From: Candidatus Staskawiczbacteria bacterium RIFCSPHIGHO2_02_FULL_42_22
GTDB lineage: Bacteria > Patescibacteriota > Minisyncoccia > Minisyncoccales > Staskawiczbacteraceae
Direction: 5' to 3'
DNA: 64,000 bases
NCBI GenBank assembly: GCA_001820175.1
Contig: MHOT01000012.1
Coordinates: 124 to 64,123 of the forward strand
Made by a program: the position numbers and the translations under genes. Below are positions 4,150-62,722 of the stretch, piece by piece. The notes beneath the pieces are model-generated. The model was not told the origin of the DNA. It ran no database searches and worked only from the letters and a program-made list of their open reading frames with translations. Numbering within the stretch: position 1 is the stretch's first letter; every line of letters begins with the position of its first letter.

Positions 4150-4650
4150 TATTTTTATTATGAATCTCGAATCTTGTATCTTGTAGCTTGAATAGAATAA
4201 AGAATCATGAATGATGACAATAAAATCAGAAGGTTTACCGATCTTCATGCTTGGCAAGAGGGGCATAAGTTAGTATTAATGGTCTATAGAAATACTGAAA
4301 CATTTCCCGATAAAGAAAGGTTTGGGATAATAGACCAAATGAGACGAGCTGTAATTTCTTTGACTTCTAATATAGCGGAGGGATTTTCAAGGAGGTCTTC
4401 AAAAGAAAAGAACAGGTTTTATTGCATGGCCCAGGCATCATTAGTAGAATTACAAAATCAACTTATTATTTCTAGAGATATTGGTTATTTATCAAATGAT
4501 GAATTTAAAATAATTGCAGATCAGTCAGTGGTGGCAAATAAACTGTTAAATGGACTCTTAAAAGCTACTAAAGATAAAAAATTTGAATCTTAGATTCTTA
4601 ATTCAAAATTCTATTCAAGCTACAAGATACAAGATTCAAGATTCACACAC
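4150..4650. mobile_element. AT-rich inverted-repeat cassette 2 carrying a four-helix-bundle gene
   Basis: gaatctcgaatcttgtatcttgtagcttgaatagaat (4160-4197) is mirrored by attctattcaagctacaagatacaagattcaagattc (4603-4641), flanking ORF 4207..4593. Confidence 0.55.
4207..4593 (+). CDS. four-helix-bundle protein (PF05635 family)
   Basis: 128 aa. Family motifs present: LTSNIAEGFSRRS..EK.RFY..A.AS..ELQNQL. Confidence 0.6.
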   Translation: MNDDNKIRRFTDLHAWQEGHKLVLMVYRNTETFPDKERFGIIDQMRRAVISLTSNIAEGFSRRSSKEKNRFYCMAQASLVELQNQLIISRDIGYLSNDEFKIIADQSVVANKLLNGLLKATKDKKFES

Positions 4651-4653
4651 ATT

Positions 4654-5328
4654 ATGGCAGAGCAATCAACTCAAGATTTTTTAGAATTCAAAGACATTAA
4701 AGAAGGTATTGTTATCCTTAAAAACAACGATATTCGGGGCGTTTTAATGGTCTCTTCCATTAATTTTGCCTTAAAGTCCGACGATGACCGCGCGGCCATC
4801 ATTTATGCCTTCCAGAATTTTTTAAATTCCCTGGATTTTCCCTGCCAGATTGTGGTGCAGTCAAAAAAAATCAACATCACCCGCTACTTAGACACCCTGC
4901 GCGCTCTGGAAGAAAAGCAAACCAACGAACTGCTTAAAATCCAAACTGCTTCATACATAGAGTTTATAAAAAACCTGGTGCAGGGTGATGCGGTTATGAC
5001 CAAAAACTTTTACGTTGTGGTGCCTTACGCCCTTACGGCAATCTTGGGTACTGGTGCTATTACCAAACAGTTCAATATTCCGGATTTATTGGGCAAAAAA
5101 AATAAGGCCGGCGGGCCGGTGCAATCCATCAGCGACGAGGACTTTGAAAAATGCAAAAACCAGCTTTGGCAACGAATGGAATTTTTGGCCCTTGGCTTAA
5201 AGCGTTGCGGATTAGACAGCGTGCCGCTTACCACCCCGGAATTAATTGAATTGTTCTGGTCACTACACCACCCAAGCGAAGCGGAAGTGGGGTATTCACC
5301 GGAGATAATACCGGAATTATTGAAATAA
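4654..5328 (+). CDS. VirB4-family ATPase, N-terminal segment (split gene)
   Basis: Shows the DIKEGIVILKNNDIRGVLMVSSINFALKSDDDRAAIIYAFQNFLNSLDFPCQIVVQSKK pattern typical of the N-terminal region of Gram-positive-type VirB4 (TcpF/Orf16-like). The stop codon abuts the left arm of cassette 3. Confidence 0.5.
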   Translation: MAEQSTQDFLEFKDIKEGIVILKNNDIRGVLMVSSINFALKSDDDRAAIIYAFQNFLNSLDFPCQIVVQSKKINITRYLDTLRALEEKQTNELLKIQTASYIEFIKNLVQGDAVMTKNFYVVVPYALTAILGTGAITKQFNIPDLLGKKNKAGGPVQSISDEDFEKCKNQLWQRMEFLALGLKRCGLDSVPLTTPELIELFWSLHHPSEAEVGYSPEIIPELLK

Positions 5329-5808
5329 TTCCGAATTATCAATTATCAATTTTCAAGTATCAATCAAGTTTTAAATTACTAAATTATCAATATGGAAAAG
5401 ATATTTGACCTAGAGGAAAGAACTATGGTTTTTGCAGAAAATATAATTGATTTAGTAAGATCAATAAAAAGTGACTCGGTAAATAATAGAATTATCACCC
5501 AATTAGTAGGTTCAAGTGGCTCTATCGGAGCAAATTATTGCGAAGCCACAGAAGGTGAAAGTAAAAAAGATTTTATTCATAAAATTGGCATCGCCAAAAA
5601 AGAAATAAAAGAAACCAAGCACTGGTTGCGATTATTAGCCAGAGCTAATCCTGAGAAAAAAGAAGAAATAAGAAAATTATGGAAAGAAGTACAAGAACTG
5701 CTATTAATATTCTCTAAAATAATCAGAAGCAGTAAAACCAACGCGATTGAAAATTAATTACTTGATCATTTATTGATACTTGAAAATTGATAATTGATAA
5801 TTAAGATC
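5329..5808. mobile_element. AT-rich inverted-repeat cassette 3 carrying a four-helix-bundle gene, inserted between the two VirB4 segments
   Basis: aattatcaattatcaattttcaagtatcaat (5335-5366) is mirrored by attgatacttgaaaattgataattgataatt (5771-5802), flanking ORF 5392..5757. Confidence 0.55.
5392..5757 (+). CDS. four-helix-bundle protein (PF05635 family)
   Basis: 121 aa. EERT..FAENII, SIGANYCEATEGESKKDFIHKIGIAKKEIKETKHWL; paralog of 3293..3655. Confidence 0.65.
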   Translation: MEKIFDLEERTMVFAENIIDLVRSIKSDSVNNRIITQLVGSSGSIGANYCEATEGESKKDFIHKIGIAKKEIKETKHWLRLLARANPEKKEEIRKLWKEVQELLLIFSKIIRSSKTNAIEN

Positions 5809-7611
5809 ATGGCTATTCCATTCTTCAAAAATAAAAAGGGGACAGAAATAGAAGAAGAAAAAATCTTTGGCCAAGACACCCTTAACATCAAGGACATCAT
5901 TGCTCCTCCTTACATTGGCATTACCCAGGATAATATTAAGCTGGGAGAAAAAATAGTAAAGTCATTTTTTATTTTCTCCTACCCCCGGTATATAAATACC
6001 GGCTGGCTGTCTCCGGCCATCAATCTGAATGTTCCCATGAACATTGCTTTTTTCATCCACCCGGTTGACAGTTCCCAGATTTTACGGAAATTGCGTTCAA
6101 AGGTGACCCAAGTTTCTTCAGAATTAATAGAGCGCCAGGAAAAGGGGCTTATCCGCGATCCGGCCCTTGAAACATCTTACCAAGACATTGAAAATTTACG
6201 GGATAAAATCACCACCGCCCAGGAAAAAATGTTTCAGTTCGGGCTGTATATTACTTTATTTGAAGAAAATCCTCAAACCCTCAAAGAAACTGAGGTAACC
6301 CTACGGTCTATTTTTGAATCACGGCTTATTTACATAAAACCGGCGCTCTTTAAACAAAAAGAGGGGTTTATTTCCACCCTTCCCTACGGTCTGGATATGC
6401 TTTCGGTTCACGTGCCCATGGACACCGACCCTTTATCCACTTCATTTCCTTTTATTTCGTTTGACTTAAGCTCAAATGAAGGGATTTTATACGGCATCAA
6501 CAACCATAATAATTCCCTGGTGCTCTTTGACCGCTTCACGCTGGAGAACGCAAACATGGTGGTCTTCGCAAAATCGGGATCCGGCAAGTCCTACGCCATA
6601 AAATTGGAAATTTTGCGCTACCTAATGTGGGGAATTGATGTTATTGTGGTAGACCCGGAAAACGAGTATGAATTTTTATCGGATGGCGTTGGGGGCGACT
6701 TTTTCAACATTTCCCTTACTTCAGATACCCATATTAACCCCTTTGACTTGCCTATGCCCGGAGCGGAAGAAAACCCCGAAGATATTTTGCGCTCTAACAT
6801 TATTAACTTGGTGGGGCTGTTGCGAATTATGCTTGGCGGATTGAGTGCAGAAGAAGATAGCATTGTCGACGAAGCCCTCACTGAAACCTACGCCATCCGC
6901 GATATTACGGCCCAATCAAACCCCGCCACCTGGCAGGAAAACATACCCGTTCTGTCCGACTTTGCGGAAATTTTGGAAAGCATGGCGGGAGCCGAATCGC
7001 TGGCCAGGCGCCTTAAAAAATTCACCCAGGGAACTTTTTCTGATTTTTTCAACCAAAAAACCAATATTGCCATGGATAAGCCATTTATTGTCTTTGGCAT
7101 CCGCGATATGGAAGAATCACTGCGGCCGGTGGCCCTTTTTATGGTCATGCGATACATTTGGAACACTATTCGCACCCACATCAAAAAGAGGATTTTAGTG
7201 GTGGACGAGGCCTGGTGGCTGACCCAGTCCGAAGACGGCGCTTCGTTTTTATTTAGCGTGGTAAAACGCGGCCGAAAATACTGGCTGGGGGTTACCACCA
7301 TCACCCAGGACGTAGAGGACTTTATGAAATCAAGTTATGGTAAGGCCATTATTACGAATTCCTCGCTGCAATTATTACTAAAACAATCACCGGCCACCAT
7401 TGACGTGATGCAAAATATATTCAATTTAACTGAACAGGAAAAAATGCTTCTTTTGGAAGCCAATGTAGGGGAGGGACTCTTTTTTGCCGGTAAAAAACAT
7501 GTCAGTATTAGTATAAAAGCCAGCTACACCGAAGACCAGATTATTACTACCAACCCGGGGGAGGTGGAAAAGATAAAGGAAGCTAAAAGGAAACTAAAGG
7601 AAAATCTATAA
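5794..7611 (+). CDS. virB4: VirB4/TraC/CagE-family T4SS ATPase (C-terminal, catalytic segment)
   Basis: Walker A VVFAKSGSGKSY, Walker B RILVVDEAWWL, motif VTTITQD. The N-terminal IIAPPYIGITQDNIKLGEKIVKSFFIFSYPRYINTGWLSPAINLN matches the conserved VirB4 region. The actual start is possibly the ATG at 5809. Confidence 0.8.
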   Translation: MIIKIMAIPFFKNKKGTEIEEEKIFGQDTLNIKDIIAPPYIGITQDNIKLGEKIVKSFFIFSYPRYINTGWLSPAINLNVPMNIAFFIHPVDSSQILRKLRSKVTQVSSELIERQEKGLIRDPALETSYQDIENLRDKITTAQEKMFQFGLYITLFEENPQTLKETEVTLRSIFESRLIYIKPALFKQKEGFISTLPYGLDMLSVHVPMDTDPLSTSFPFISFDLSSNEGILYGINNHNNSLVLFDRFTLENANMVVFAKSGSGKSYAIKLEILRYLMWGIDVIVVDPENEYEFLSDGVGGDFFNISLTSDTHINPFDLPMPGAEENPEDILRSNIINLVGLLRIMLGGLSAEEDSIVDEALTETYAIRDITAQSNPATWQENIPVLSDFAEILESMAGAESLARRLKKFTQGTFSDFFNQKTNIAMDKPFIVFGIRDMEESLRPVALFMVMRYIWNTIRTHIKKRILVVDEAWWLTQSEDGASFLFSVVKRGRKYWLGVTTITQDVEDFMKSSYGKAIITNSSLQLLLKQSPATIDVMQNIFNLTEQEKMLLLEANVGEGLFFAGKKHVSISIKASYTEDQIITTNPGEVEKIKEAKRKLKENL

Positions 7612-8342: not shown

Positions 8343-8532
8343 CCGCGGCCCTATGGACATCACATCCAGAAACCGCACTCCAAGTCTTGCCGGATTTGCC
8401 AATCTTGGGCAGTTTTCACAAAAAATTTGTTCGGCGTAGCTACGGCTAGGCCTTACAAATTTTTTGCTCCAAGCCGCCCAATATTGCGAAACCGTCGGCA
8501 ACTTTAGTGCGGTTTCTGGATGTGATGTCCAT
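8343..8532. repeat. family-B MITE-like element (27-bp TIR atggacatcacatccagaaaccgcact), copy 1
   Basis: Perfect terminal inverted repeats. The internal sequence is the reverse complement of copy 32318..32497. Flanked by TA on both sides. Confidence 0.7.
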
Positions 8533-8540
8533 AACAACCC

Positions 8541-8686
8541 TAGATTGCTTCGTCGTCACGCCTGCGGGCGCAACTCCTCGCAATGACGGGGGACACAGAA
8601 TTCGCGTCATTGCGAGGAGCCCGCAGGCGACGAAGCAATCTAACGGTGAACGGAGATTGCTTCGCTGCGGCTCGCAATGACGGATT
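8541..8686. repeat. GC-rich palindromic element (GTCATTGCGAGG...GAAGCAATCT...AGATTGCTTC...CCTCGCAATGAC family), tandem pair
   Basis: Nested inverted repeats read directly: cgtcattgcgaggagcccgcaggcgacgaagcaatctaacggtgaacggagattgcttcgctgcggctcgcaatgacgg. Confidence 0.7.
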
Positions 8687-13525: not shown

Positions 13526-14596
13526 GGTATAAAGGTAGGTAACTTGTTGCTAATTTTTGAAGTAGATATACCACTTAAAGAAATCCTTTCGCCTGCCCTT
13601 TAACAATCCGCGATGTTGTCGGTAAATAATTTTTAATCTTGAAAAATATCCCTCGATCTTGTTCGTGGTTGAAGGAATATTTTTATCTTTTAAATAATGG
13701 AACATGCTCGGCAGAGCGTTTATCAATAAATTTCTGGTTGCTTTAAGATCGCTGAAAACTTTATCCTTTGAAGACAGGAGGTTCACCGATTTTCCGTATT
13801 TCCTTTCCCATTTTTGAAAAGTATTTAAGAATATTTTTTTACCTCTTTCATTTTTAATTTTTGTAACAGATAGCAATATATCTCTTAATTTCTTGCTGGC
13901 CTCCAGCTTTGGATTTCTTCTTAACCATGATAACCCCTGCCGTTGAATGTGTGCCAAACATCTTTGTATGATAATATCTGGCCAGACATCTTTAATGGCC
14001 CTCATTACGCTTGTATTGCCATCTACCGTGATAGCCATGGGCATAATGCCGCAGCTCTTTGACTCTTCAAAAATTGATCTTGCATATTCGTAATTTTCTC
14101 TGATACAATATTTATGATTTACGATTTTACCATTCGAATTGTCTATTAGCACCATTAGACAATTTTCATGTTTGAAATATGTCCCATCAAAAAGTAAATA
14201 TTTTATTTGATGGTAATTTAGAGTTTTTTTATCCGGCGCTTTGTTCATCCAAAAAGATAATATTTGTTTTATCTTCCAAATTCCACGACGGCTAATACTG
14301 ACTAATTGCCTTGCCGAATAACCCTCAACAATCCACAGCTCAAACCATTTTCTTTCGTTAAATTCCTTGTTCTTGCGATTATGAAAAGTGTAGGTGTGCT
14401 TACAAATTTTACATCTATACCTCTGGTAACCGCATGAAGTGCGACCAAATAATTTAACATTCAAAGAACCACACTTTAGACAACTTTTTTTTCATAATAT
14501 TGAACTGATTTGATATTATTCCAGATTTTAATTGTAATTTACTCTCAAATTAGCACGAAATCCGCATTTTTAGCAACAAGTTACCTACCTTTATAC
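13526..14596 (-). mobile_element. IS1595-family-like insertion sequence with 27-bp perfect TIRs and 8-bp target duplication
   Basis: TIR gtataaaggtaggtaacttgttgctaa at 13527-13553, with its reverse complement at 14570-14596. The direct repeat tcattgcg occurs at 13518-13525 and 14597-14604. There is a single transposase ORF. Confidence 0.7.
13550..14464 (-). CDS. transposase (N-terminal zinc ribbon plus DDE domain; IS1595-like)
   Basis: C..C...C..C near the N-terminus (CGYQRYRCKICKH). DDE-region motifs LFDGTYF, ITVDGNTSVMRAIKDVWPD and TNKIEGYFSRLK. Length 304 aa. Confidence 0.7.
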   Translation of the reverse strand: MNVKLFGRTSCGYQRYRCKICKHTYTFHNRKNKEFNERKWFELWIVEGYSARQLVSISRRGIWKIKQILSFWMNKAPDKKTLNYHQIKYLLFDGTYFKHENCLMVLIDNSNGKIVNHKYCIRENYEYARSIFEESKSCGIMPMAITVDGNTSVMRAIKDVWPDIIIQRCLAHIQRQGLSWLRRNPKLEASKKLRDILLSVTKIKNERGKKIFLNTFQKWERKYGKSVNLLSSKDKVFSDLKATRNLLINALPSMFHYLKDKNIPSTTNKIEGYFSRLKIIYRQHRGLLKGRRKDFFKWYIYFKN

Positions 14597-14690
14597 TCAT
14601 TGCGAGGAGTCCTGAGCCGCAGCGAAGGACGACGAAGCAATCTAACATTGAACGGAGATTGCTTCACTGCGGCTCGCAATGACGGCGTAA
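14597..14690. repeat. GC-rich palindromic element (right part of IS-disrupted copy plus hairpin)
   Basis: tcattgcgaggagtcctgagccgcagcgaaggacgacgaagcaatctaacattgaacggagattgcttcactgcggctcgcaatgacgg. Confidence 0.65.
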
Positions 14691-15451: not shown

Positions 15452-15550
15452 CTCGTCGTCATTGCGAGCGAGCGGCCGCAGCCGCGAGCGCGGCAATCTC
15501 CTTTTTTTTACGGGGATTGCTTCGGGCCTGCGGGTCCTCGCAATGACGAG
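15452..15550. repeat. GC-rich palindromic element overlapping the 3' end of yidC
   Basis: cgtcgtcattgcgagcgagcggccgcagccgcgagcgcggcaatctcc...ggggattgcttcgggcctgcgggtcctcgcaatgacgag. The yidC stop codon (15508) lies inside the element. Confidence 0.65.
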
Positions 15551-16287
15551 ATAGGGGGAATTACTTTTATATTTTTTGATCTTTTGAGAATAAACCATTG
15601 CTGCGCCATGGAAAATAATCCGCTTACAATCCAATATAGTCCCAGCGCCGATGGTAATTTTATAAGAATAATCACGGTAATAATAGGAAAAAGATATACC
15701 ATTTGTTTTTGCATCATGGATGCAATATCAGGGCCACTTTTTGCCACCCCCTTAATTGTCTTGGGAAGCAGCATTTTTGTTTGAAAAAATTGTACGGCTC
15801 CCGCCAACACTGCAAATATCATATTAGGGTCGCCTAGGTTAATAAGCCCCAGAAACATTGTGTTAATCTGCACGGGGTTTACCACAAATTGATATAAATG
15901 AGAAAGCTCTTCTGGTTTTAATCCATTCCAAAATACCCGATACAGGGCGATAAGAATAGGGAGTTGTATCAAGGCCAAAAAAAGGCCTGAAAACGGGTTT
16001 ATCTTTTCCCTGCGGTATAATTCCAGGGTCTCTTTGGCTTGCTTTTCCTTATCGTCTTTATATTTTTTTTGCAGTTCCCGCAACTGCGGCTGCAATTTTT
16101 GCATAGCCGCCTGAGAGGCAACGGCTTTCACTGAAAGCGGATAGATAATAATCCGAATAATCACTGTAAGAATAATAATAGCGATGCCAAAATCGTGGCC
16201 AGGCACATAATTATAAATAATCACCAGGAAATTAAAGAGGGGAAAGTATAAAAAAAAATCGAAAAAATTTACAATAAATTGGAACAT
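15508..16287 (-). CDS. yidC: membrane protein insertase YidC (short form); last ~18 codons encoded by a GC-rich repeat
   Basis: Multi-TM Oxa1/YidC pattern with conserved loop PQLRELQKKYKDDKEKQAKETLELYRREKINPFSG. The C-terminus ...SLRGPAGPKQSP is read from the repeat. Confidence 0.8.
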   Translation of the reverse strand: MFQFIVNFFDFFLYFPLFNFLVIIYNYVPGHDFGIAIIILTVIIRIIIYPLSVKAVASQAAMQKLQPQLRELQKKYKDDKEKQAKETLELYRREKINPFSGLFLALIQLPILIALYRVFWNGLKPEELSHLYQFVVNPVQINTMFLGLINLGDPNMIFAVLAGAVQFFQTKMLLPKTIKGVAKSGPDIASMMQKQMVYLFPIITVIILIKLPSALGLYWIVSGLFSMAQQWFILKRSKNIKVIPPISSLRGPAGPKQSP

Positions 16288-16440: not shown

Positions 16441-16779
16441 TTATATTATTCCCATCTTTCTAAAAGAATCACTGACGGTTTTCTGTATCTCTAAAAACTC
16501 TCTTTTCTCGATTCCAGCCAAACTAATAACAATAACATCAAATGATCCGTTTAATTCCCCCAATAAACCCGCAACTGCGTCTCGTAATCTCCTTTTTACC
16601 CTATTGCGTACTACGGCTTTTGGTGAAACCTTCTTACTGACCACAAAACCAAAGCGACTGGAAGGTAAATTATTTTTCACAGCTTTTACCAGTAAAAAAT
16701 CCTGCTTGACGCCCTTTCCCCCAGTAAAAACCTTATCGAAATCCTTTTTTTTGGTAAGTCGGTTTATTTTTGGCAACAC
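16441..16779 (-). CDS. rnpA: ribonuclease P protein component
   Basis: 112-aa basic protein with the RNR motif (RNRVKRRLRDA). Sits between rpmH and yidC. Confidence 0.75.
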   Translation of the reverse strand: MLPKINRLTKKKDFDKVFTGGKGVKQDFLLVKAVKNNLPSSRFGFVVSKKVSPKAVVRNRVKRRLRDAVAGLLGELNGSFDVIVISLAGIEKREFLEIQKTVSDSFRKMGII

Positions 16780-18655: not shown

Positions 18656-18689
18656 GCAACCCCTCACGCCCCACATAACCCCTCACGCC

Positions 18690-18975
18690 CCCACCGTCAT
18701 TGCGAGGCACACTGAAGCAATCCCCGTACAAAACGACGAGATTGCCACGTCGCTTGCGAGCTCCTTGCAATGAAGACACTGGGTCACTGATCCTATTTTA
18801 CACTTTTTGATTAGGGGGTGTGAGGGGTTACCGCCTCACCACCATCACTACCGTCATTGCGAGGAATCCGCAGATTCCGTGGCAATCCCTCAATAATACG
18901 ACTAGATTGTCCCGATGGTGGAGCCATCGAGGATCCTCGATAGAATCGGGACTGCGGGCCCTCGTAATAACAGTA
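18690..18975. repeat. cluster of GC-rich palindromic elements (3 units)
   Basis: ccgtcattgcgaggcacactgaagcaatcc..., cgtcattgcgaggaatccgcagattccgtggcaatcc... and attgtcccgatggtggagccatcgaggatcctcgat...atcgggact. Confidence 0.65.
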
Positions 18976-19235
18976 CGGGGGATGATGTGGTTAAAATTAA
19001 AATAAGATAGTGGAATACCTGTGTAAAAGTACGGTAGTAAACTGAACACCATTGATGTATAAAAAATACTATAAAAATTCACCCACCTTATCACCAAATG
19101 ATTTCCAATTATTTATCAACAAGTTATTATAAAAAAAGATAAAGATAAATTACCCTATAAAATTATTAAAAATACATTAAAATTACCTTCACCAACAACA
19201 ATAATAATATTTTATTAACTATTAATTACGACATT
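18976..19235. promoter_or_regulatory. AT-rich dnaA-dnaN intergenic region with DnaA-box-like 9-mers (oriC/DUE candidate)
   Basis: TTATCACCA and TTATCAACA at ~19087-19120, followed by ~120 bp of >85% AT immediately upstream of dnaN. Confidence 0.4.
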
Positions 19236-20469: not shown

Positions 20470-20617
20470 ACATACACCCACCGTCATTGCGAGGAGCGCG
20501 CACGCGACGCGGCAATCTCCACCACCAAACGACGACGGAGATTGCCATGGCTGGCCAGACGCGAGGCGTAATTTGTCGCAACAAATTCGCCCCGTCTCCG
20601 GCCTCGCAATGACGGGA
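20470..20617. repeat. GC-rich palindromic elements (2 units)
   Basis: ccaccgtcattgcgaggagcgcgcacgcgacgcggcaatctcc...ggagattgcc...gcctcgcaatgacggg. Confidence 0.65.
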
Positions 20618-27994: not shown

Positions 27995-28306
27995 ACTACC
28001 GTCATTGCGAGGAGTCCCGATCGCAATCGTGGACGACGAAGCAATCTCGTCATTTTGTATGGAGATTAGACCTGTCCCTAAATAAGGTTTCGTACGAAAA
28101 TAACAGATTTTGAGCTAGAAATTTGATAGAATTTTTCGGCTTGCCCTCTGGGCCCGCCGAAAAATTATAGCAAATTTGTGGCCAAAAGGTGTTATTTGCA
28201 GTAAAACCTTATTTAGGGACAGGTCTATTACTTCGTCGTTGTGACTCCTCGCAATGACGGGGTGGCCAGATTGCTTCGGGCCTGCTGGCCCTTGCAATGA
28301 CAAAGT
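27995..28306. repeat. GC-rich element with a nested family-C element (copy 3, TA-flanked)
   Basis: ccgtcattgcgaggagtcccgatcgcaatcgtggacgacgaagcaatctcgtcattttgtatggagat-TA-[gacctgtccctaaataaggttt...aaaccttatttagggacaggtc]-TA-ttacttcgtcgttgtgactcctcgcaatgacgg. Confidence 0.65.
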
Positions 28307-28450
28307 GTGAGGGGTTACGACAAAAACAGCTCTGGAGTTGGAGGTCTTATATGGGCATGTCTTAGATTGGATAGTTTTGCTCCGGCTCAACTATTCCCTA
28401 AACACGCTTTTACTGGTATCCCAGATACCATGACCCCTCCAACTCCAGAG
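28300..28450. repeat. long hairpin (20-bp stem, ~100-nt loop)
   Basis: acagctctggagttggaggtc ... gacccctccaactccagagctgt. Confidence 0.45.
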
Positions 28451-32254: not shown

Positions 32255-32317
32255 TGTTTTATCTATAAGTGTAGTACATTTCATGGGCATTGTTGGAGGG
32301 AGTCAATCATGAGCACT

Positions 32318-32497
32318 ATGGACATCACATCCAGAAACCGCACTTAAGTTGCCGACGGTTTGGCAATCTTGGGCGGCTTGGAGCAAAAAATTTGTGAGGC
32401 CTAGCCGTAGCTACGCCGAACAAATTTTTTGTGAAAACTGCCCAAGATTGGCAAACCCGTCAAGACTTGGAGTGCGGTTTCTGGATGTGATGTCCAT
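32318..32497. repeat. family-B MITE-like element, copy 2 (opposite internal orientation to copy 1)
   Basis: atggacatcacatccagaaaccgcact...agtgcggtttctggatgtgatgtccat; TA flanks. Confidence 0.7.
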
Positions 32498-32698
32498 ATG
32501 TATGACAAGGGTATGGGAAATTTTTTAGGAAATGCAAGAATGCAGAAAGGAGATTCCGTAGAAGATGTGAGAGTAAGATCTGGTTATTCTAGTAGGATAA
32601 CCATAAGTGGGATTGAAGCAGGAAAATATGGAATTTCCGCAAAAAATATAAAAAGAATTGTTGCTGCGTACCGACTAACGCCCGCTGAATTGCAGTAA
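32498..32698 (+). CDS. small XRE-type helix-turn-helix protein (tentative)
   Basis: ITISGIEAGKYGISAKNIKRIVAAYRLTPAEL resembles an HTH_XRE helix-turn-helix. The start codon lies at the edge of the family-B repeat. Confidence 0.3.
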   Translation: MYDKGMGNFLGNARMQKGDSVEDVRVRSGYSSRITISGIEAGKYGISAKNIKRIVAAYRLTPAELQ

Positions 32699-38346: not shown

Positions 38347-38424
38347 AATTTTTTAAGTTAATTAAAACTCTATCAGATAATCTCGATTTTTGCAACTTTT
38401 TGGTAATTGAGCTTGGTGAATAAT

Positions 38425-38860
38425 ACCCACTACCGTCATTGCGAGGAGCCCCGAACCACAGTGAGGGGCGACGAAGCAATCTAATAACGAATGGAGATTG
38501 CTTCGCTGTGGCTCGCAATGACGAGAGAAAAACCATTATTCGCCAAGCTCTAATTAAAACCCCTCACACCCCCGATGTCATTTACGACGCGCACGATCGG
38601 GAATCCAGGGGAAAATCTTCTGGATCCCGGGTCAAAAGTCCGGGATGACAACGAGAGGCGTGAGGGGCTATTTTTGGTAATTTTGAGTATGGCAAATAAT
38701 CCCCTCAATCAGTCATTGCGAGCCCACAGGCGTGGCAATCTCGCTTCATTGAATCTAACTGGATTGTCCCGATGGTGGAACCATCGAGGATCCTCGATCA
38801 CATCGGGACTTCGGGTTTGCGAACCCTCGCAATGACGATGCGCGTGGGGGATGCCTCGGT
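38425..38860. repeat. cluster of GC-rich palindromic elements (4 units, including an intact copy of the unit split at 22925)
   Basis: ccgtcattgcgaggagccccgaaccacagtgaggggcgacgaagcaatct...; gatgtcatttacgacgcgcacgatcgggaatccagggg...cccgggatgacaacgagaggcg; cagtcattgcgagcccacaggcgtggcaatctc...attgtcccgatggtggaaccatcgaggatcctcgat. Confidence 0.7.
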
Positions 38861-39946: not shown

Positions 39947-40226
39947 CGTCATTACGAGGGGATTGTAATACCTGAAGCAATCTCGCATAATTACATAAAA
40001 CGAGATTGCCGCTCGCTTTGCGAGCAAAGCTCCTCGCAATGACGATGGGGGGGGTGTGAATGGTCACCCCTCAAAGTAACTGCTCACTGAACATGAAAAA
40101 TAAGCCCACTTACCTCTCGTCGTCATTGCGAGGAGCCCCGAGCCGAATCGAGGGGCGACGTGGCAATCTGGTCGTTTTGTACGGGGATTGCTTCGGGCCT
40201 GCGGGCCCTCGCAATGACGAGAGGCG
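39947..40226. repeat. GC-rich palindromic elements (2 units)
   Basis: cgtcattacgaggggattgtaatacctgaagcaatctcgc... and cgtcgtcattgcgaggagccccgagccgaatcgaggggcgacgtggcaatct...ggggattgcttcgggcctgcgggccctcgcaatgacgag. Confidence 0.7.
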
Positions 40227-40301
40227 CGAGGGGTTAGTCAAATGCTTGACATTATTTTATAAAATGTTATAATGGGATAATTAAGTTAATTATAAAATTT
40301 T

Positions 40302-49042: not shown

Positions 49043-49046
49043 GAGT

Positions 49047-49105
49047 ATGGACATCACATCCAGAAACCGCACTAAGTTGCCGACGGTTTGGAAACTTTAG
49101 TGCAA
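49047..49105. repeat. family-B element remnant (left TIR plus ~30 nt)
   Basis: atggacatcacatccagaaaccgcactaagttgccgacggtttgg, then diverges. Confidence 0.5.
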
Positions 49106-49149: not shown

Positions 49150-49240
49150 CCCCTCCGTGTCATACCCGCGAAAGCGGGGATCCAGACTCTCAAACAAAAA
49201 CGCTAGATTCCCGCTTTCGCGGGAATGACAATGGGGCGGT
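49150..49240. repeat. GC-rich palindromic element, variant subfamily (gtcat.cccgcgaaagcggg)
   Basis: cgtgtcatacccgcgaaagcggggatccagactctcaaacaaaaacgctagattcccgctttcgcgggaatgacaatgg; a near-identical copy is at 57395..57480. Confidence 0.65.
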
Positions 49241-54818: not shown

Positions 54819-55077
54819 GATTTACTAAAAGTTATCCACAGCCAGATGCTTGACATGGTTTTTTGAGGTGATATGATGGCGGTAGATGAACCTTTTAGAA
54901 GATTATCACAATCTTCAAAAAAGGGATATCAATTCGCTCCGCTCATTCAAAATACAACCCCCAAACAAACCCAAAAAAACACCACAACCCCTCAAACATA
55001 TCAACAGGGCTTTCTTCGGAAAGTCTTTTTGCGTATATGGGGCCAGTGTTTGGATCTTGGTGAATAATAATTTTTCC

Positions 55078-55158
55078 CTCGTCATTGCGAGCCGCAGCGA
55101 AGCAATCTCCGTTCATCGCTAGATTGCTTCGTCGCCTGCGGGCTCCTCGCAATGACGG
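55078..55158. repeat. GC-rich palindromic element
   Basis: cctcgtcattgcgagccgcagcgaagcaatctccgttcatcgctagattgcttcgtcgcctgcgggctcctcgcaatgacgg. Confidence 0.7.
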
Positions 55159-55226
55159 TTTTGGGACATTGTTCACAAAGCTTGTTTGATAAATACTGCA
55201 TATTTTGTTACGATGAAAACAAAAAC

Positions 55227-56284: not shown

Positions 56285-56465
56285 GGGTATGCAGCGTAAT
56301 CCTAATCTCCGTTCGTCATTGCGAGGCCGGAGACGGGGCGAATTTGTTGCGACAAATTACGCCTCGCGTCTGGCCAGCCGTGGCAATCCCCGTCGTCGTT
56401 TGGTGGTGGAGATTGCCGCGTCGTCCTTCGCCCTGGCTCAGGACTCCTCGCAATGACGGGAGGTG
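56285..56465. repeat. GC-rich palindromic elements (2 units)
   Basis: ccgttcgtcattgcgaggccggagacggggcgaatttgttgcgacaaattacgcctcgcgtctggcc...gtggcaatcc...ggagattgccgcgtcgtcc...cctcgcaatgacggg. Confidence 0.65.
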
Positions 56466-56497
56466 TAACATGTCCAGTGAGCAGTTACAGAGGCCTT

Positions 56498-56677
56498 ATG
56501 GACATCACATCCAGAAACCGCACTAAAGTCGCCGGCGGTTTGGCAATCTTGGGCGGCTTGGAACAAAAAATATGCGAGGCGTAGCCGAAGCTACGGCGAA
56601 CATATTTTTTGTGAAAACTGCCCAAGATTGCCAAATCCGGCAAGACTTGGAGTGCGGTTTCTGGATGTGATGTCCAT
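56498..56677. repeat. family-B MITE-like element, copy 4
   Basis: Perfect 27-bp TIRs, TA flanks; the flanking host sequence aggcctt/aagggcct is itself palindromic. Confidence 0.7.
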
Positions 56678-56730
56678 AAGGGCCTTTTTTGTTATTTTGT
56701 AGTATAATGAAGCATTAATTATTTTATCTT

Positions 56731-57394: not shown

Positions 57395-57480
57395 TACCTC
57401 CTCCGTGTCATTCCCGCGAAAGCGGGAATCCAGATTCTCAAACAAAAACGCTAGATTCCCGCTTTCGCAGGAATGACAAT
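57395..57480. repeat. GC-rich palindromic element, variant subfamily (second copy)
   Basis: ccgtgtcattcccgcgaaagcgggaatccagattctcaaacaaaaacgctagattcccgctttcgcaggaatgacaat. Confidence 0.65.
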
Positions 57481-57518
57481 AAGGGTGGCATTAGGTGTTA
57501 TCTGCCAAGCTCAGTTAA

Positions 57519-60440: not shown

Positions 60441-60445
60441 ATTAA

Positions 60446-60483
60446 GAAAATACCGCACGGCCCATGGGCCGTGCGGTATTTTC
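60446..60483. terminator. bidirectional terminator between ogt and rplT
   Basis: gaaaataccgcacggcccatgggccgtgcggtattttc. Confidence 0.7.
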
Positions 60484-60522
60484 TTGGTTTATTGGGATTC
60501 GTGAGTTAGTTGTGGCAATTCG

Positions 60523-60870
60523 TTATTTTTTTACTTCTTCAATGATTTTTTCGAATACGTTAGGATATTTTTTGATTAATTCAGATAAGATTTTCCTATC
60601 AAGGTTGATTTTTTTTAATTTTAACCCATGGATTAATTTACTATAGTTGATTCCTAATTTTCGGGCCGCGGCGTTAATTTGCAATTGCCATAATTGCCGA
60701 AAGTCCCTCTTTTTTACTTTTCTATCCCTATAAGAAAACGTCCAGGCGTGGCGCAAAGCATCTTTGGCCAACTTGTACTTTGATTTTCGGCCATATTTAA
60801 AACCCTTGGCATGTTTTAGCAAGTGTTTTTTATGTTTATGGGCGGCAGCTCCTTTTTTGACTCTAGTCAT
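60523..60870 (-). CDS. rplT: 50S ribosomal protein L20
   Basis: MTRVKKGAAAHKHKKHLLKHAKGF... Confidence 0.9.
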   Translation of the reverse strand: MTRVKKGAAAHKHKKHLLKHAKGFKYGRKSKYKLAKDALRHAWTFSYRDRKVKKRDFRQLWQLQINAAARKLGINYSKLIHGLKLKKINLDRKILSELIKKYPNVFEKIIEEVKK

Positions 60871-60980
60871 GTTCTAGAATTTAAAATTTAAAATGATAAA
60901 TTTAAAAACAATGATAAATTTCAGAATTTTTAAATTAGTGCTTTTAAATTGTTTTTAAATTTTGAATTCGGATTTTTAAA

Positions 60981-61169
60981 TTAACTTTGTAAGTATCGCT
61001 TAACTCTCTTAGTTTCCGATTGAGATAATTGGATCCACTTTCGGCCCTTTCTTCGCATCTGGCCGGTTTTTTTTGAACGATAATGGTTTTGGCCCGAGGC
61101 ACGCCGCAAAATCTTCCCCGTTCCGGTGATTTTAAATCTTTTTATAATGGCTTTTTTTGTCTTATTCAT
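60981..61169 (-). CDS. rpmI: 50S ribosomal protein L35
   Basis: MNKTKKAIIKRFKITGTGKILRR...; infC-rpmI-rplT gene order. Confidence 0.85.
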   Translation of the reverse strand: MNKTKKAIIKRFKITGTGKILRRASGQNHYRSKKTGQMRRKGRKWIQLSQSETKRVKRYLQS

Positions 61170-61275
61170 GTGGGTGCGATGCTAATATACTAATTCATGC
61201 TAATTATACTAATACGTCAACGAATACGTTTTTATTCGTATTATTAGTATGCATTCGTATATTGGCATCGCATTT
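61170..61275. repeat. family-D hairpin element, copy 2 (between infC and rpmI)
   Basis: gcgatgctaatatactaattcatgctaat...attagtatgcattcgtatattggcatcgc. Confidence 0.6.
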
Positions 61276-61783
61276 ACTCTTTCGATACAATCATCGTAAA
61301 CCCTTTTATTTCTCGTTTTAATTCCCGTTCTACTTTTAGTGGTATTAATTTATCAGTAGTTTCAAGAAAGAAAATCATTTTTTGTTTTGCCAGCTCGCCC
61401 ATGGCTTTCTCTCTGCCTTTCAGCACCATACTTACCTTTACTTTATCGCCCTCTTTGATAAATTTCTCTGCTTGCTTGGCTTTTGTTTCAATGTCGCCGG
61501 CGGCTATATTAAACCCAATCTGGATTTCTTTTAACTTAGTAATTTTGGTATTTACCTTTATTTTCTTTTCTTTTTTTTGCAGTGAATAGAGATATTTTCC
61601 GTAGTTGGCAATGCGACATACCGGCGGCTGGACTTTTTCGGTTACCTGAATTAAATCCAGTCCTTTGCTTTTTGCCAATTCAATGGCCGCAAAAATATTC
61701 ATCACTCCCAGTTGTTCGCCGGTCTCACTGATGACCCGCACTTCTTTTGCCCGTATGAAATTGTTGATTAATACTTTTTCCAA
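61274..61783 (-). CDS. infC: translation initiation factor IF-3, probable non-ATG start
   Basis: IRAKEVRVISETGEQLGVM...PPVCRIANYGKYLY. The listed ATG start at 61912 would run through a GC-rich repeat. A TTG at 61781-61783 preceded by aaggaaaa fits the usual IF-3 atypical start. The 5' boundary is uncertain. Confidence 0.7.
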   Translation of the reverse strand: MEKVLINNFIRAKEVRVISETGEQLGVMNIFAAIELAKSKGLDLIQVTEKVQPPVCRIANYGKYLYSLQKKEKKIKVNTKITKLKEIQIGFNIAAGDIETKAKQAEKFIKEGDKVKVSMVLKGREKAMGELAKQKMIFFLETTDKLIPLKVERELKREIKGFTMIVSKE

Positions 61784-61790
61784 ATGATTT

Positions 61791-61866
61791 TCCTTGTCAT
61801 TCTCGGGCTTGACCCGAGAATCCAGAGTTATTCTTGCTGGATTCCGGGCTTTGGCGGGAATGACAT
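61791..61866. repeat. GC-rich palindromic element between infC and ssrA
   Basis: ccttgtcattctcgggcttgacccgagaatccagagttattcttgctggattccgggctttggcgggaatgacatgtgg. Confidence 0.6.
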
Positions 61867-61867
61867 G

Positions 61868-62217
61868 TGGTGGAGATGCCGAGATTGAACTCGGGTCCAA
61901 TAATTTTTTCAAAATAATTCTACAAATGTATTCTGTTTTGTTGTTTGGATATCAAATAAGAAACAGACAAAATTTTTAATATCCTAATCCTCTTAATTTC
62001 AATAATTTTCCGAGGAGAAAAATTATCTATCCTAATAATATAACACCCTTGGTCCGCCTATTAGGAGTCGACGGCAAGGATGCAGCACTAAGCGTATGCT
62101 AATGCTGGTTGCTTATTAAATAAATTAGCAATTATGTTTTTTCTGAAAGTTTAGCCAGATTTCAGAATACTGGATTTGCTTATTTTGAAAGGAACTATTG
62201 TCGAAGCTCACATCCCC
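61868..62217 (-). ncRNA. ssrA: tmRNA (SsrA), one-piece, CCA encoded
   Basis: Minus strand reads 5'-GGGGAUGUGAGCUUCGACAAUAG...GGACCCGAGUUCAAUCUCGGCAUCUCCACCA-3'. The 7-bp acceptor stem GGGGAUG/CAUCUCC has a G3-U pair, and there is a T-arm CCGAG-UUCAAUC-CUCGG. Candidate tag frame GCU AAU UUA UUU AAU AAG CAA CCA GCA UUA GCA UAC GCU UAG (ANLFNKQPALAYA). Immediately downstream of smpB. Confidence 0.75.
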
Positions 62218-62218
62218 A

Positions 62219-62722
62219 TTATTTTAACGCTCGTTGAATGTCGCGCTGGACGTCTCGTTTTTTAATTTTCTCTTTTTTATCAAATTTCTTCTTACCGCGA
62301 GCCAGAGCGAATTCGAGTTTTATCCTACCATTTTGCTCGTAAACTTTCAAGGGGATGAGCGAAAAACCGCGCTCGTTCACTTTACCCATAAGGTAATTAA
62401 TTTCTTTTTTATTTAATAGCAACTTGCGTGGTTGTTCAGGATTATAATCGGCTGGCGCATTTTTGGGCTGATAGGGAGGAATTTTAGCGCCGATGAGCAG
62501 TGGTTCGGCGGCGGCCCGAGGGTGGGAATTTCCGCCTGCGAGCGGAAAATTCTCGCGTCCAGCCGGGCCGCCGCCGCGAATCACCACATACGCCCCCGCC
62601 AAATGCATGTGCCCCGTTTTGATGCTTTTTACCTCTTGGCCAATCAAAACCAGCCCGGCTTCATATTTTTCCAGGATTTCGTAGTCAAACGTGGCCTTCT
62701 TATTTTCAGAATAAATTTCCAT
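62219..62722 (-). CDS. smpB: SsrA-binding protein SmpB, carrying an in-frame GC-rich palindromic insertion
   Basis: ATFDYEILEKYEAGLVLIGQEVKSIK...KLLLNKKEINYLMGKVNERGFSLIPLKVY. About 21 extra residues (GPAGRENFPLAGGNSHPRAAAEP) lie between VVIRGG and LLIGAKI. Confidence 0.85.
   Translation of the reverse strand: MEIYSENKKATFDYEILEKYEAGLVLIGQEVKSIKTGHMHLAGAYVVIRGGGPAGRENFPLAGGNSHPRAAAEPLLIGAKIPPYQPKNAPADYNPEQPRKLLLNKKEINYLMGKVNERGFSLIPLKVYEQNGRIKLEFALARGKKKFDKKEKIKKRDVQRDIQRALK
62507..62576. repeat. 70-bp GC-rich perfect-ended palindrome inside smpB (in frame)
   Basis: gcggcggcccgagggtgggaatttccgcctgcgagcggaaaattctcgcgtccagccgggccgccgc. Confidence 0.65.

What the first reader, a model, noticed from the sequence alone, without database searches (positions are those of the whole stretch)
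61868..62217. tmRNA gene found immediately downstream of smpB
Reading the minus strand from 62217 gives GGGGAUGUGAGCUUCGAC..., matching the tmRNA 5' consensus. The sequence ending at 61868 is GGACCCGAG-UUCAAUC-CUCGG-CAUCUCC-A-CCA, a T-arm plus acceptor 3' strand plus discriminator plus encoded CCA. The acceptor stem pairs GGGGAUG with CAUCUCC and includes the G3-U wobble required for alanylation. A candidate tag frame ending in a UAG reads ANLFNKQPALAYA, an unusual terminus compared with the common ...ALAA. The ORF track extended infC across the adjacent repeat, which would have hidden this gene.
Basis: partly seen in the sequence, partly recalled or inferred. Interest (0 to 1): 0.55.

Follow-up and report, generated by a model that had tools for sequence, protein, structure and literature searches.

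The report
tmRNA gene wedged between smpB and infC
This is a genuine, ordinary-type tmRNA (ribosome-rescue RNA) gene of a tiny groundwater bacterium; its notable features are that it starts one base after its partner gene smpB and that its degradation tag ends in Ala-Tyr-Ala instead of the usual Ala-Ala.

Summary
The finding is correct. Window 61868-62217 (minus strand) is a standard one-piece tmRNA (ssrA). ARAGORN calls exactly these coordinates with tag ANLFNKQPALAYA*. Rfam RF00023 scores 119.8 bits (threshold 47) over the whole model.

Across 73 related tmRNAs, every canonical helix, including both stems of four pseudoknots, is supported by compensatory changes. The G3-U pair and the discriminator A are invariant.

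The organism is Candidatus Staskawiczbacteria (CPR/Parcubacteria). The gene lies 1 nt after the smpB stop codon in a terminator-free block smpB-ssrA-infC-rpmI-rplT, so co-transcription and tRNA-like excision is the likely route of expression (inferred).

The "unusual" tag end is the lineage norm: 71 of 73 tags end A-[Y/F/L]-A and none ends LAA.

The infC ORF is over-extended across a 71-nt palindromic repeat into the tmRNA, both mechanically and in public gene calls. The real start is a conserved TTG at 61783.

By-products:
- In 25 of 67 relatives the smpB stop codon lies inside the tmRNA. A 2014 survey reported this arrangement only in Carsonella.
- ARAGORN misses about two thirds of these tmRNAs.

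Verdict: a new member of a known kind, of modest interest.

The parts
62219..62722 (-). smpB (SsrA-binding protein, 167 aa; stop codon TAA at 62221-62219)
   Evidence: ORF. NCBIfam NF003843 158.9 bits (cutoff 130) and TIGR00086 143.1 bits. 100% identical to a protein of Ca. Staskawiczbacteria RIFCSPHIGHO2_02_FULL_42_22.
61868..62217 (-). ssrA: standard one-piece tmRNA, 350 nt including the encoded CCA
   Evidence: ARAGORN. Rfam RF00023 119.8 bits, full model. Structure covariation on 73 homologues.
62211..62217 (-). acceptor stem 5' strand GGGGAUG (tmRNA nt 1-7); G3 forms the G-U alanine identity pair
   Evidence: G1-C, G2-C and G3-U are invariant in 73 of 73; positions 4-7 covary (helix 1).
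62141..62173 (-). pseudoknot PK1 (tmRNA 45-48/60-63 and 51-57/71-77), just upstream of the resume codon
   Evidence: helices 4-6 are 90-95% paired, with compensatory changes (CCAG/CUGG <-> UGAG/CUCA <-> CGAG/CUCG).
62088..62129 (-). tag reading frame: resume codon GCU 62129-62127, peptide ANLFNKQPALAYA, stop UAG 62090-62088. The stop lies in hairpin P5 (tmRNA 111-116/130-135).
   Evidence: ARAGORN. Aligned with the Rfam consensus resume codon. The peptide family is conserved, with length differences in whole codons, in 73 sequences. P5 covaries (helix 7).
61932..62082 (-). pseudoknots PK2 (tmRNA 136-188), PK3 (191-230) and PK4 (234-286)
   Evidence: Stems defined. Helices 8-15 are 77-99% paired, nearly all pairs with compensatory changes.
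61868..61894 (-). T-arm (CCGAG-UUCAAUC-CUCGG, 61894-61879), acceptor 3' strand CAUCUCC (61878-61872), discriminator A (61871), CCA (61870-61868)
   Evidence: T-stem is 99.7% paired with 4 of 5 pairs covarying (helix 16). CCA is encoded in only 15 of 73 relatives.
61795..61865 (.). 71-nt GC-rich palindromic repeat element (TGTCATTC...GAATGACA) inserted between the tmRNA 3' end and infC
   Evidence: RNA hairpin -32.3 kcal/mol, z=-5.1. Third copy of a family also at 49150-49235 and 57398-57483. The tmRNA-infC gap is much shorter in most relatives (gap to the IF3 residue-1 equivalent has a median of about 12 nt, against about 75-77 nt here).
61274..61783 (-). infC (IF3), true start TTG 61783-61781
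   Evidence: TIGR00168 141.2 bits. The TTG-GAA-AAA-GTA-TTA-ATC-AAC start context is conserved in relatives. The 212-aa mechanical ORF and the 208-aa public call are over-extended.
60523..61169 (-). rpmI (61169-60981) and rplT (60870-60523), the rest of the block
   Evidence: TIGR00001 and TIGR01032.
60443..60486 (.). perfect palindromic terminator-like hairpin after rplT; the only terminator-like site downstream of smpB in this direction
   Evidence: It was called on the + strand, but the stem is a perfect palindrome. No minus-strand terminator-like site lies between 62722 and 60523.
62506..62576 (.). GC-rich palindrome inside the smpB coding sequence (in frame; part of a 21-aa loop insertion)
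   Evidence: 13-nt perfect arms. Hairpin -54 kcal/mol, z=-5.4. Relatives' SmpB is about 146 aa, with variable insertions at the same loop.
16441..16779 (-). rnpA, protein subunit of RNase P (the enzyme expected to cut the tmRNA 5' end)
   Evidence: TIGR00188 73 bits against a cutoff of 38.35.

Best explanation
Window 61868-62217 (minus strand) is the functional ssrA gene of a Candidatus Staskawiczbacteria (CPR/Parcubacteria) genome. It is a standard, non-permuted tmRNA.

Shown:
- A tRNA-Ala-like domain: a 7-bp acceptor stem with G3-U, discriminator A, a T-arm and an encoded CCA.
- A long helix P2, four pseudoknots, and a 13-codon tag frame (resume codon GCU, stop UAG in hairpin P5).
- A partner protein, SmpB, encoded immediately upstream.

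Inferred from established knowledge of trans-translation: the RNA is charged with alanine and, with SmpB, enters ribosomes stalled at the 3' end of stop-less mRNAs. Translation switches to the tag frame, so the truncated protein receives (A)ANLFNKQPALAYA and is released at UAG for degradation.

Expression (inferred from anatomy): the gene starts 1 nt after the smpB stop codon. No terminator-like site lies between smpB and the end of rplT. The tmRNA is therefore most likely made from a smpB-ssrA-infC-rpmI-rplT transcript and cut out like a tRNA, by RNase P at the 5' end (rnpA is in the window) and by 3' trimming.

The A-Y-A tag end is a lineage-wide variant of the hydrophobic C-terminal degron. 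Which protease reads it is unknown.
For: - ARAGORN and Rfam agree on the coordinates and on the tag (119.8 bits against GA 47).
- On 73 homologous tmRNAs, a structure with 105 pairs in 16 helices is 89.8% paired against 40-49% for slid controls. 86 pairs have compensatory changes, the covariation score is 0.495 against 0.23, and 0 of 500 shuffles reach it. RNAalifold independently recovers 57 pairs, 46 of them with compensatory changes.
- G1-C, G2-C, G3-U and the discriminator A are invariant.
- The tag peptide is conserved (ANLF..QPALA[Y/F/L]A). Resume codons are synonymous GCU/GCC/GCA, and length changes are whole codons.
- SmpB passes two NCBIfam equivalog cutoffs and keeps its basic C-terminal tail.
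- A tmRNA follows smpB in every related locus that extends far enough: 72 full-length plus 7 partial or split among 80. Rfam confirmed it in 20 of 20 loci tested.
- infC follows the tmRNA in essentially all relatives that reach far enough.
- There is no minus-strand terminator-like site between smpB and rplT. rnpA is present.
Against: - Nothing contradicts the identification.
- There are no expression, aminoacylation or tagging data for this uncultured organism.
- Co-transcription is inferred only from spacing and the absence of terminators. Promoter-like hits were not above chance (9 found against 8.3 +/- 3.4 expected). One of them lies inside smpB (62350-62322), so a separate ssrA promoter cannot be excluded.
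- The 71-nt hairpin element after the CCA could act as a partial terminator or processing site and uncouple infC in this strain.
- The tag does not end in the Ala-Ala that dominates strong C-terminal degrons in E. coli (PMC10862746), so efficient proteolysis is unproven.
- Only 64 kb of the genome was examined, so a second tmRNA elsewhere cannot be ruled out.
Confidence: 0.96

Rival explanations
1. The region is not an RNA gene but the N-terminal extension of infC: the 212-aa ORF 61912-61274, or the 208-aa public gene call.
For: A continuous ORF with a TTG start exists. Public gene callers annotate a 208-aa IF3 that overlaps the tmRNA 3' end.
Against: - IF3 homology starts only at about residue 45 of that ORF (the profile matches from residue 5 of the protein started at 61792).
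- Relatives keep a conserved TTG/ATG start at the position equivalent to 61783, usually within about 5-25 nt of the tmRNA end (typically about 20).
- The extra 43 codons are the translated palindromic repeat plus the tmRNA T-arm and acceptor strand.
Confidence: 0.01
2. It is a tmRNA pseudogene, or a duplicated tmRNA fragment left by integration of a mobile element at the tmRNA 3' end, and the working copy is elsewhere.
For: tmRNA genes are common integration sites for genomic islands (PMC11915505), and a repeat element abuts the 3' end. Only 64 kb of the genome was seen.
Against: - The full-length model matches, with every helix intact in this sequence.
- The tag frame is intact.
- The gene sits in the position conserved across the lineage, between smpB and infC.
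- The neighbouring element is a 71-nt palindrome with other copies in intergenic DNA, not an island with an integrase.
- There is no other tmRNA hit in the window.
Confidence: 0.02
3. The tmRNA is genuine, but the A-[Y/F/L]-A tag end reflects a switch of the degradation machinery away from ClpXP, for example to Lon or FtsH. This happened in Mycoplasma, whose tags end ...YAFA/...FAFA and are read by Lon. This refines rather than replaces the best explanation.
For: - 71 of 73 tags in the lineage end A-Y/F/L-A and none ends LAA.
- In E. coli the most potent C-terminal degrons end in Ala-Ala (PMC10862746).
- Mycoplasma lacks ClpXP, and its tag is degraded mainly by Lon (PMC8403727, citing Gur & Sauer 2008).
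- CPR genomes are strongly reduced (PMC12911398 abstract).
Against: - Whether Staskawiczbacteria carry clpX, clpP, lon or ftsH could not be determined. None lies in the window, and no literature was found.
- The tag is short (13 codons), unlike the 27-residue Mycoplasma tag.
- From my own knowledge, engineered E. coli tags with a bulkier penultimate residue (the LVA variant) are still degraded quickly, so AYA may still be a ClpX degron.
Confidence: 0.3
4. ssrA has its own promoter inside smpB and is transcribed independently; the tight spacing is only genome compaction, with no regulatory consequence.
For: A sigma-70-like match with an extended -10 TG lies at 62350-62322, about 105 nt upstream of the tmRNA 5' end. 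CPR genomes are compact in general.
Against: - Promoter-like matches are at chance frequency.
- Even with an internal promoter, every smpB transcript must run into ssrA, because there is 1 nt and no terminator between them. RNase P would therefore still cut smpB mRNA right after its stop codon.
Confidence: 0.2

Closest known systems
Standard one-piece bacterial tmRNA (Rfam RF00023; E. coli SsrA, tag ANDENYALAA)
   Same: - tRNA-Ala-like domain with G3-U, discriminator A and a T-arm.
- Helix P2, PK1 before an Ala resume codon, a stop codon in hairpin P5, and PK2-PK4.
- Dedicated partner SmpB.
- Size of 350 nt.
   Different: - AT-rich (34% GC).
- Tag ends ...LAYA instead of ...LAA.
- Single UAG stop.
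- The gene abuts smpB with a 1-nt spacer and sits inside an smpB-ssrA-infC-rpmI-rplT block, rather than being a separate transcription unit as in E. coli (from my own knowledge).
Carsonella ruddii smpB-ssrA overlap (Mao et al. 2009; Hudson, Lau & Williams 2014, PMC4131195)
   Same: smpB runs up to or into ssrA, so tmRNA 5' maturation must cut the smpB mRNA at or inside its stop codon. In 25 of 67 relatives of this locus the smpB stop lies within the tmRNA; in 19 of them it is the UGA at tmRNA nt 6-8.
   Different: - In this window the stop codon is intact and ends 1 nt before the cleavage site.
- SmpB here is full-length with its C-terminal tail, whereas Carsonella SmpB is truncated.
- The lineage is a free-living or episymbiotic CPR group, not an insect endosymbiont.
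Mycoplasma/Mesoplasma tmRNA tags read by Lon (Gur & Sauer 2008, as cited in PMC8403727)
   Same: A reduced-genome lineage whose tag ends in aromatic-Ala (YAFA/FAFA there, AYA/AFA here) instead of Ala-Ala.
   Different: The Mycoplasma tag is about 27 residues, against 13 here. Absence of ClpXP is established for Mycoplasma but is unknown here.
smpB-ssrA co-transcription in Firmicutes and Actinobacteria (papers retrieved by a full-text search for smpB, ssrA, co-transcribed and RNase P: PMC2965222, PMC4342826, PMC5784534; listed but not read)
   Same: ssrA lies downstream of smpB on the same strand and is reported there as co-transcribed and processed.
   Different: Those loci have a real intergenic spacer, and ssrA ends the unit (from my own knowledge). 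Here the spacer is 1 nt, and a ribosomal/IF3 operon follows directly.

Membership tests
tmRNA, standard one-piece form (Rfam RF00023) | Covariance-model score at or above the curated gathering score, over the full-length model | tested here: met
   119.8 bits against 47, E=3.2e-46, model positions 1-374 of 374, not truncated. ARAGORN gives the same coordinates.
tmRNA, standard one-piece form (Rfam RF00023) | tRNA-Ala-like domain: 7-bp acceptor stem with a G3-U pair, discriminator A, and a T-arm of 5 bp with a 7-nt loop | tested here: met
   GGGGAUG/CAUCUCC, A, CCA; CCGAG-UUCAAUC-CUCGG. G3-U and the discriminator A are invariant in 73 of 73. Stems covary (helices 1 and 16).
tmRNA, standard one-piece form (Rfam RF00023) | Non-permuted gene order (5' acceptor strand ... 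tag ... 3' acceptor strand in one piece) | tested here: met
   A single continuous hit with the acceptor strands at the two ends. No intron in the T-loop.
tmRNA, standard one-piece form (Rfam RF00023) | Short tag ORF that starts at an Ala (GCN) resume codon downstream of PK1 and ends at a stop codon in hairpin P5 | tested here: met
   GCU at tmRNA 89-91 and UAG at 128-130, inside P5 (111-116/130-135). The frame is conserved in 73 sequences: 71 of 73 resume codons are GCN, and length differences are whole codons.
tmRNA, standard one-piece form (Rfam RF00023) | Four pseudoknots (PK1-PK4) and the long helix P2 | tested here: met
   Both stems of each pseudoknot are 77-99% paired with compensatory changes. 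P2 is 80-99% paired (helices 2-6 and 8-15).
tmRNA, standard one-piece form (Rfam RF00023) | Cognate SmpB encoded in the genome | tested here: met
   smpB lies directly upstream; NF003843 158.9 bits (cutoff 130), TIGR00086 143.1 bits (cutoff 119.1).
tmRNA, standard one-piece form (Rfam RF00023) | Alanylation, SmpB/EF-Tu binding and tagging activity | not testable with these tools
   Needs biochemistry or proteomics. The organism is uncultured.
ClpXP-type ssrA degron (C-terminal ...LAA-COOH) | Tag ends in Leu-Ala-Ala, or at least Ala-Ala | tested here: not met
   The tag ends Leu-Ala-Tyr-Ala. No tag among the 73 relatives ends in Ala-Ala.
ClpXP-type ssrA degron (C-terminal ...LAA-COOH) | clpX and clpP (and optionally sspB) present in the genome | not testable with these tools
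   None in the 64-kb window.
Carsonella-type smpB/ssrA overlap giving a non-stop smpB mRNA | smpB stop codon lies inside the mature tmRNA sequence | tested here: not met
   In the window the TAA is at 62221-62219 and tmRNA nt 1 is at 62217, a spacer of +1. The feature is met in 25 of 67 related loci.
Mycoplasma-type Lon-directed tag | Long (~27 aa) tag ending ...YAFA/FAFA in a genome without ClpXP | tested here: inconclusive
   The terminus is similar (aromatic-Ala), but the tag has only 13 codons. The protease complement is unknown.

The most novel reading that the evidence does not exclude
In this Parcubacteria lineage the tmRNA is an internal, tRNA-like excised segment of an smpB-ssrA-infC-rpmI-rplT transcript with essentially no spacers.

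Cutting out the tmRNA leaves smpB mRNA ending 1 nt after its stop codon in this genome. In about 37% of relatives it leaves the mRNA without a stop codon at all. SmpB synthesis would then itself become a substrate of trans-translation, giving a built-in negative feedback. A 2014 survey found this arrangement only in Carsonella.

The same cut leaves infC mRNA nearly leaderless in many relatives. The lineage-wide A-[Y/F/L]-A tag end would then mark a change of the protease that reads the tag.
Probability: 0.25. Interest if true: 0.55.

Novelty: new member of a known kind. Interest (0 to 1): 0.25.

Why it matters
For this window, it corrects the annotation:
- A universal, functionally important RNA gene occupies 61868-62217.
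- infC starts at 61783, not 61912.
- The translated repeat is not protein.

More broadly:
- ARAGORN alone finds only about one third of tmRNAs in this CPR lineage, although the Rfam model finds them all. Pipelines that rely on ARAGORN will under-report tmRNA and over-extend infC.
- The family-wide tag ending (A-Y/F/L-A) and the zero-spacer or overlapping smpB-ssrA-infC arrangement give testable hypotheses about how reduced-genome bacteria regulate ribosome rescue and which protease reads the tag.

None of this changes what a tmRNA is understood to be.

Tried and rejected
- ARAGORN on 80 related loci found a tmRNA in only 22. I first took this as a possible absence in close relatives. I rejected that after an nhmmer profile and Rfam (20 of 20) found full-length tmRNAs in all of them.
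- Promoter and terminator scans were uninformative: counts equal chance.
- I looked for Clp, Lon or FtsH genes in the window to test the protease-switch idea and found none. Literature searches on Patescibacteria/CPR with ClpP/Lon returned nothing usable. The ClpP/ClpX genes in PMC10768705 belong to the host bacterium, not to the CPR epibiont.
- I searched the 80 loci for the GC-rich palindrome inside smpB and found no copies, so it is strain-specific.
- I considered an island integration at the tmRNA 3' end. I rejected it because the adjacent element is a 71-nt palindrome of a dispersed repeat family.
- My first automatic 5'-end assignment was off by one in 13 loci (it missed the first G). 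It was corrected from acceptor-stem pairing before the final spacer statistics.

Full report
**Observation.** The minus strand of 62217-61868 reads GGGGATGTGAGCTTCGAC ... GGACCCGAGTTCAATCTCGGCATCTCCACCA. ARAGORN reports a single tRNA-type gene in the whole 64-kb window: a tmRNA at 61868..62217 (-) with tag ANLFNKQPALAYA*. Rfam cmscan reports a single family hit in the window, RF00023 tmRNA, at the same coordinates. It scores 119.8 bits against a gathering score of 47, with E=3.2e-46, covering model positions 1-374 of 374.

**Source and surroundings.**
- The upstream ORF 62722-62219 is SmpB. It passes NCBIfam equivalogs NF003843 (158.9 bits, cutoff 130) and TIGR00086.
- It is 100% identical to the SmpB of Candidatus Staskawiczbacteria bacterium RIFCSPHIGHO2_02_FULL_42_22, a member of the Candidate Phyla Radiation.
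- Its stop codon TAA occupies 62221-62219, so one base separates it from tmRNA nucleotide 1.
- Downstream on the same strand come infC, rpmI and rplT.
- No terminator-like site lies on this strand between smpB and the end of rplT. A perfect palindromic hairpin follows rplT at 60443-60486.
- Promoter-like matches occur at chance frequency.
- The window also carries rnpA, the protein subunit of RNase P, next to dnaA and dnaN.

**Anatomy of the RNA** (tmRNA numbering; window coordinate = 62218 minus n).

| Element | tmRNA positions |
|---|---|
| Acceptor stem (G3-U) | 1-7 / 340-346 |
| Discriminator A | 347 |
| CCA | 348-350 |
| T-arm | 324-328 / 335-339 |
| Helix P2 | 18-25/313-320, 28-38/301-311, 39-44/291-296 |
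| PK1 | 45-48/60-63 and 51-57/71-77 |
| Resume codon GCU | 89-91 |
| Tag codons | 89-127 |
| Stop UAG | 128-130 |
| Hairpin P5 | 111-116 / 130-135 |
| PK2 | 136-188 |
| PK3 | 191-230 |
| PK4 | 234-286 |

The resume codon aligns with the consensus resume codon of the Rfam model.

**Comparative test.**
- An SmpB alignment retrieved 80 related loci from GTDB species representatives.
- ARAGORN found a tmRNA in only 22 of them.
- A profile built from those hits found a full-length tmRNA directly after smpB in 72 loci. It found partial or split matches in 7 more. The one locus with no hit ends 58 nt after smpB.
- Rfam confirmed a tmRNA (86-123 bits, full model) in 20 of 20 loci that ARAGORN had missed.
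- On the 73-sequence alignment, RNAalifold predicted 57 pairs, 46 of them with compensatory changes.
- The complete hand-specified structure, including both stems of all four pseudoknots, has 105 pairs in 16 helices. It is 89.8% paired, against 40-49% when the partners are slid by 1-3 columns. 86 pairs show compensatory changes, the covariation score is 0.495 against 0.23 in shuffles, and 0 of 500 shuffles reach any observed measure.
- G1-C, G2-C, G3-U and the discriminator A never vary.

This is as strong as sequence evidence for a functional structured RNA gets.

**The tag.**
- In all 73 sequences the frame at the aligned resume codon encodes the same peptide family, ANLF..(K/R)QPALA(Y/F/L)A.
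- Resume codons are GCU (39), GCC (28), GCA (4) and GUC (2).
- Length differences are whole codons (12-16 codons, with one of 26).
- Stops are UAA (61), UAG (11) and UGA (1).
- The last three residues are AYA (35), AFA (22), ALA (14) and other (2). None ends in Ala-Ala.

It holds across loci labelled Staskawicz-, Nealson- and Wildermuthbacteria and other Parcubacteria.

The biological meaning is open. In E. coli the strongest C-terminal degrons end in Ala-Ala (PMC10862746). In Mycoplasma, which lacks ClpXP, the tag ends in aromatic-Ala motifs and is degraded by Lon (PMC8403727, citing Gur & Sauer 2008). I could not establish whether this lineage has ClpXP, Lon or FtsH. None lies in the window, and I found no usable literature.

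**How it is probably expressed (inferred).**
- Across the lineage the tmRNA is sandwiched between smpB and infC.
- The distance from the smpB stop to tmRNA nucleotide 1 is between -16 and +13 nt in 63 of 67 loci.
- The distance from the tmRNA end to the IF3 N-terminus has a median of about 12 nt.
- With 1 nt between smpB and ssrA and no terminator, every smpB transcript must continue into ssrA.
- The tmRNA is therefore most likely released like a tRNA, by RNase P at the 5' end and by 3' trimming.
- CCA is encoded here but in only 15 of 73 relatives, so a CCA-adding enzyme is presumably needed in the lineage.

**The repeat and infC.**
- Directly after the CCA lies a 71-nt palindrome (61865-61795; RNA hairpin -32.3 kcal/mol, z=-5.1).
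- It is a diverged third copy of an element also found at 49150-49235 and 57398-57483.
- It accounts for the longer tmRNA-infC gap in this strain: 84 nt to the infC start, against typically about 20 nt in relatives.
- The mechanical ORF 61912-61274 (212 aa) reads through this repeat and 45 nt of the tmRNA.
- Public gene calls on the source contigs likewise show a 208-aa IF3 that begins inside the tmRNA.
- Relatives show a conserved start, TTG (sometimes ATG or CTG) followed by GAA AAA GTA TTA ATC AAC, which places the real infC start at 61783-61781.

**Comparison with what is known.** The gene meets every sequence-level criterion of the standard one-piece tmRNA family (see the membership table). 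It does not carry the ...LAA ClpX-type terminus.

Co-transcription of smpB and ssrA is reported in several Firmicutes and Actinobacteria; one search lists the papers by title, and I did not read them. What is less ordinary is the degree of packing. Hudson, Lau & Williams (2014, PMC4131195) described smpB running into ssrA in Carsonella. They noted that tmRNA maturation would then make smpB mRNA a non-stop substrate of its own product, and stated that they found this nowhere else. In the relatives collected here, 25 of 67 loci have the smpB stop codon overlapping the tmRNA. In 19 of those it is the UGA at tmRNA nucleotides 6-8 of GGGGAUGA, and the SmpB C-termini in the protein database agree (for example ...NSRG).

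The window itself is not such a case. Its stop codon is intact, though it ends only 1 nt before the predicted RNase P site. I did not find this CPR overlap discussed in the 2025 tmRNA database paper (PMC11915505). That database, at about 97,000 sequences, very likely already contains tmRNAs of this lineage.

**Verdict.** The finding is a correct identification of an ordinary kind of gene. It is a new member of a known family, with a lineage-typical tag variant and an unusually tight genomic embedding. Interest is modest (0.25). The most novel reading not excluded is processing-coupled feedback on SmpB together with a protease switch. It rests mainly on relatives and on inference. I put its probability at about 0.25.

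Noticed in passing
L017, L019, L022, L024, L028, L030, L031, L033-L036, L038, L039, L045, L046, L049, L050, L055-L057, L061, L066, L074, L079, L080 (around locus position 2930-2960): In 25 of 67 related loci the smpB stop codon lies inside or overlaps the tmRNA 5' end; in 19 it is the UGA at tmRNA nt 6-8. RNase P cleavage would remove the stop codon from smpB mRNA. A 2014 survey (PMC4131195) reported this arrangement only in Carsonella.
   Followed up: partly
window 62506-62576 (inside smpB): A GC-rich perfect-armed palindrome (13-nt arms; RNA hairpin -54 kcal/mol, z=-5.4) sits in frame in smpB. It contributes to a 21-aa insertion in a surface loop where relatives have 0-14 extra residues. A 93%-identical SmpB (P0002) lacks 12 of these residues. 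There is no copy in the 80 related loci. It resembles in-frame palindromic element insertions such as the Rickettsia RPEs (from my own knowledge).
   Followed up: partly
L001-L080: ARAGORN detects only 22 of about 79 tmRNA genes in this lineage. The Rfam model and an nhmmer profile find them all. I did not work out why ARAGORN fails.
   Followed up: partly
L025 about 3294-3300, L034 about 3254-3260, L057 about 3278-3284; also many loci: In some relatives the infC start codon (ATG) begins 0-1 nt after the tmRNA ...CCAC. infC mRNA would then be leaderless after tmRNA 3' processing. Across the lineage the infC start is usually TTG, with no room for a normal leader.
   Followed up: partly
L053:1633-1802, L058:3135-3210, L048:3227-3283, L011 about 1180-1195: Several related tmRNA genes carry internal insertions of 55-168 nt (13 nt in L011), between PK2/PK3 or in PK4. 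These could be repeat elements or introns at non-canonical sites.
   Followed up: no
window 8574-8682, 14595-14684, 15504-15562, 18681-18985, 20480-20614, 28231-28315, 38420-38553, 39947-40232, 55050-55171, 56314-56472: The window is littered with GC-rich palindromic repeat families (cores CGTCATTGCGAGGAG... / ...CTCCTCGCAATGACG) in otherwise AT-rich DNA. There are at least 60 direct-repeat families and 292 inverted pairs.
   Followed up: no
window 3293-3652, 4207-4590, 5392-5754; inverted repeats 4161-4212/4594-4645 and 5334-5385/5751-5802; VirB4-like pieces 4654-5325 and 5794-7608: There are three TIGR02436 'four helix bundle protein' genes. Two are bracketed by ~52-nt inverted repeats. One cassette sits between two fragments of a VirB4-like conjugal-transfer ATPase, as if a mobile cassette had split the gene.
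   Followed up: no
window 8352-8533, 32317-32498, 56497-56678 (and 49046-49075): A 182-nt repeat is present in three copies in both orientations (92-97% identical), with its own terminal inverted repeat (TATGGACATCACATCCAGAAACCGCAC...). It looks MITE-like.
   Followed up: no
window 13550-14464 (-): An IS1249/IS256-family transposase gene (NCBIfam NF033544, E=1e-46) lies close to the jag-yidC-rnpA / dnaA-dnaN origin region.
   Followed up: no
L004, L006, L008, L009 and many others (record titles): Many MAG records titled 'uncultured Candidatus Saccharibacteria bacterium', and one titled 'Gammaproteobacteria', carry a Staskawiczbacteria-like smpB-ssrA-infC locus (SmpB 60-75% identical). Their taxonomic labels are probably wrong.
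   Followed up: no
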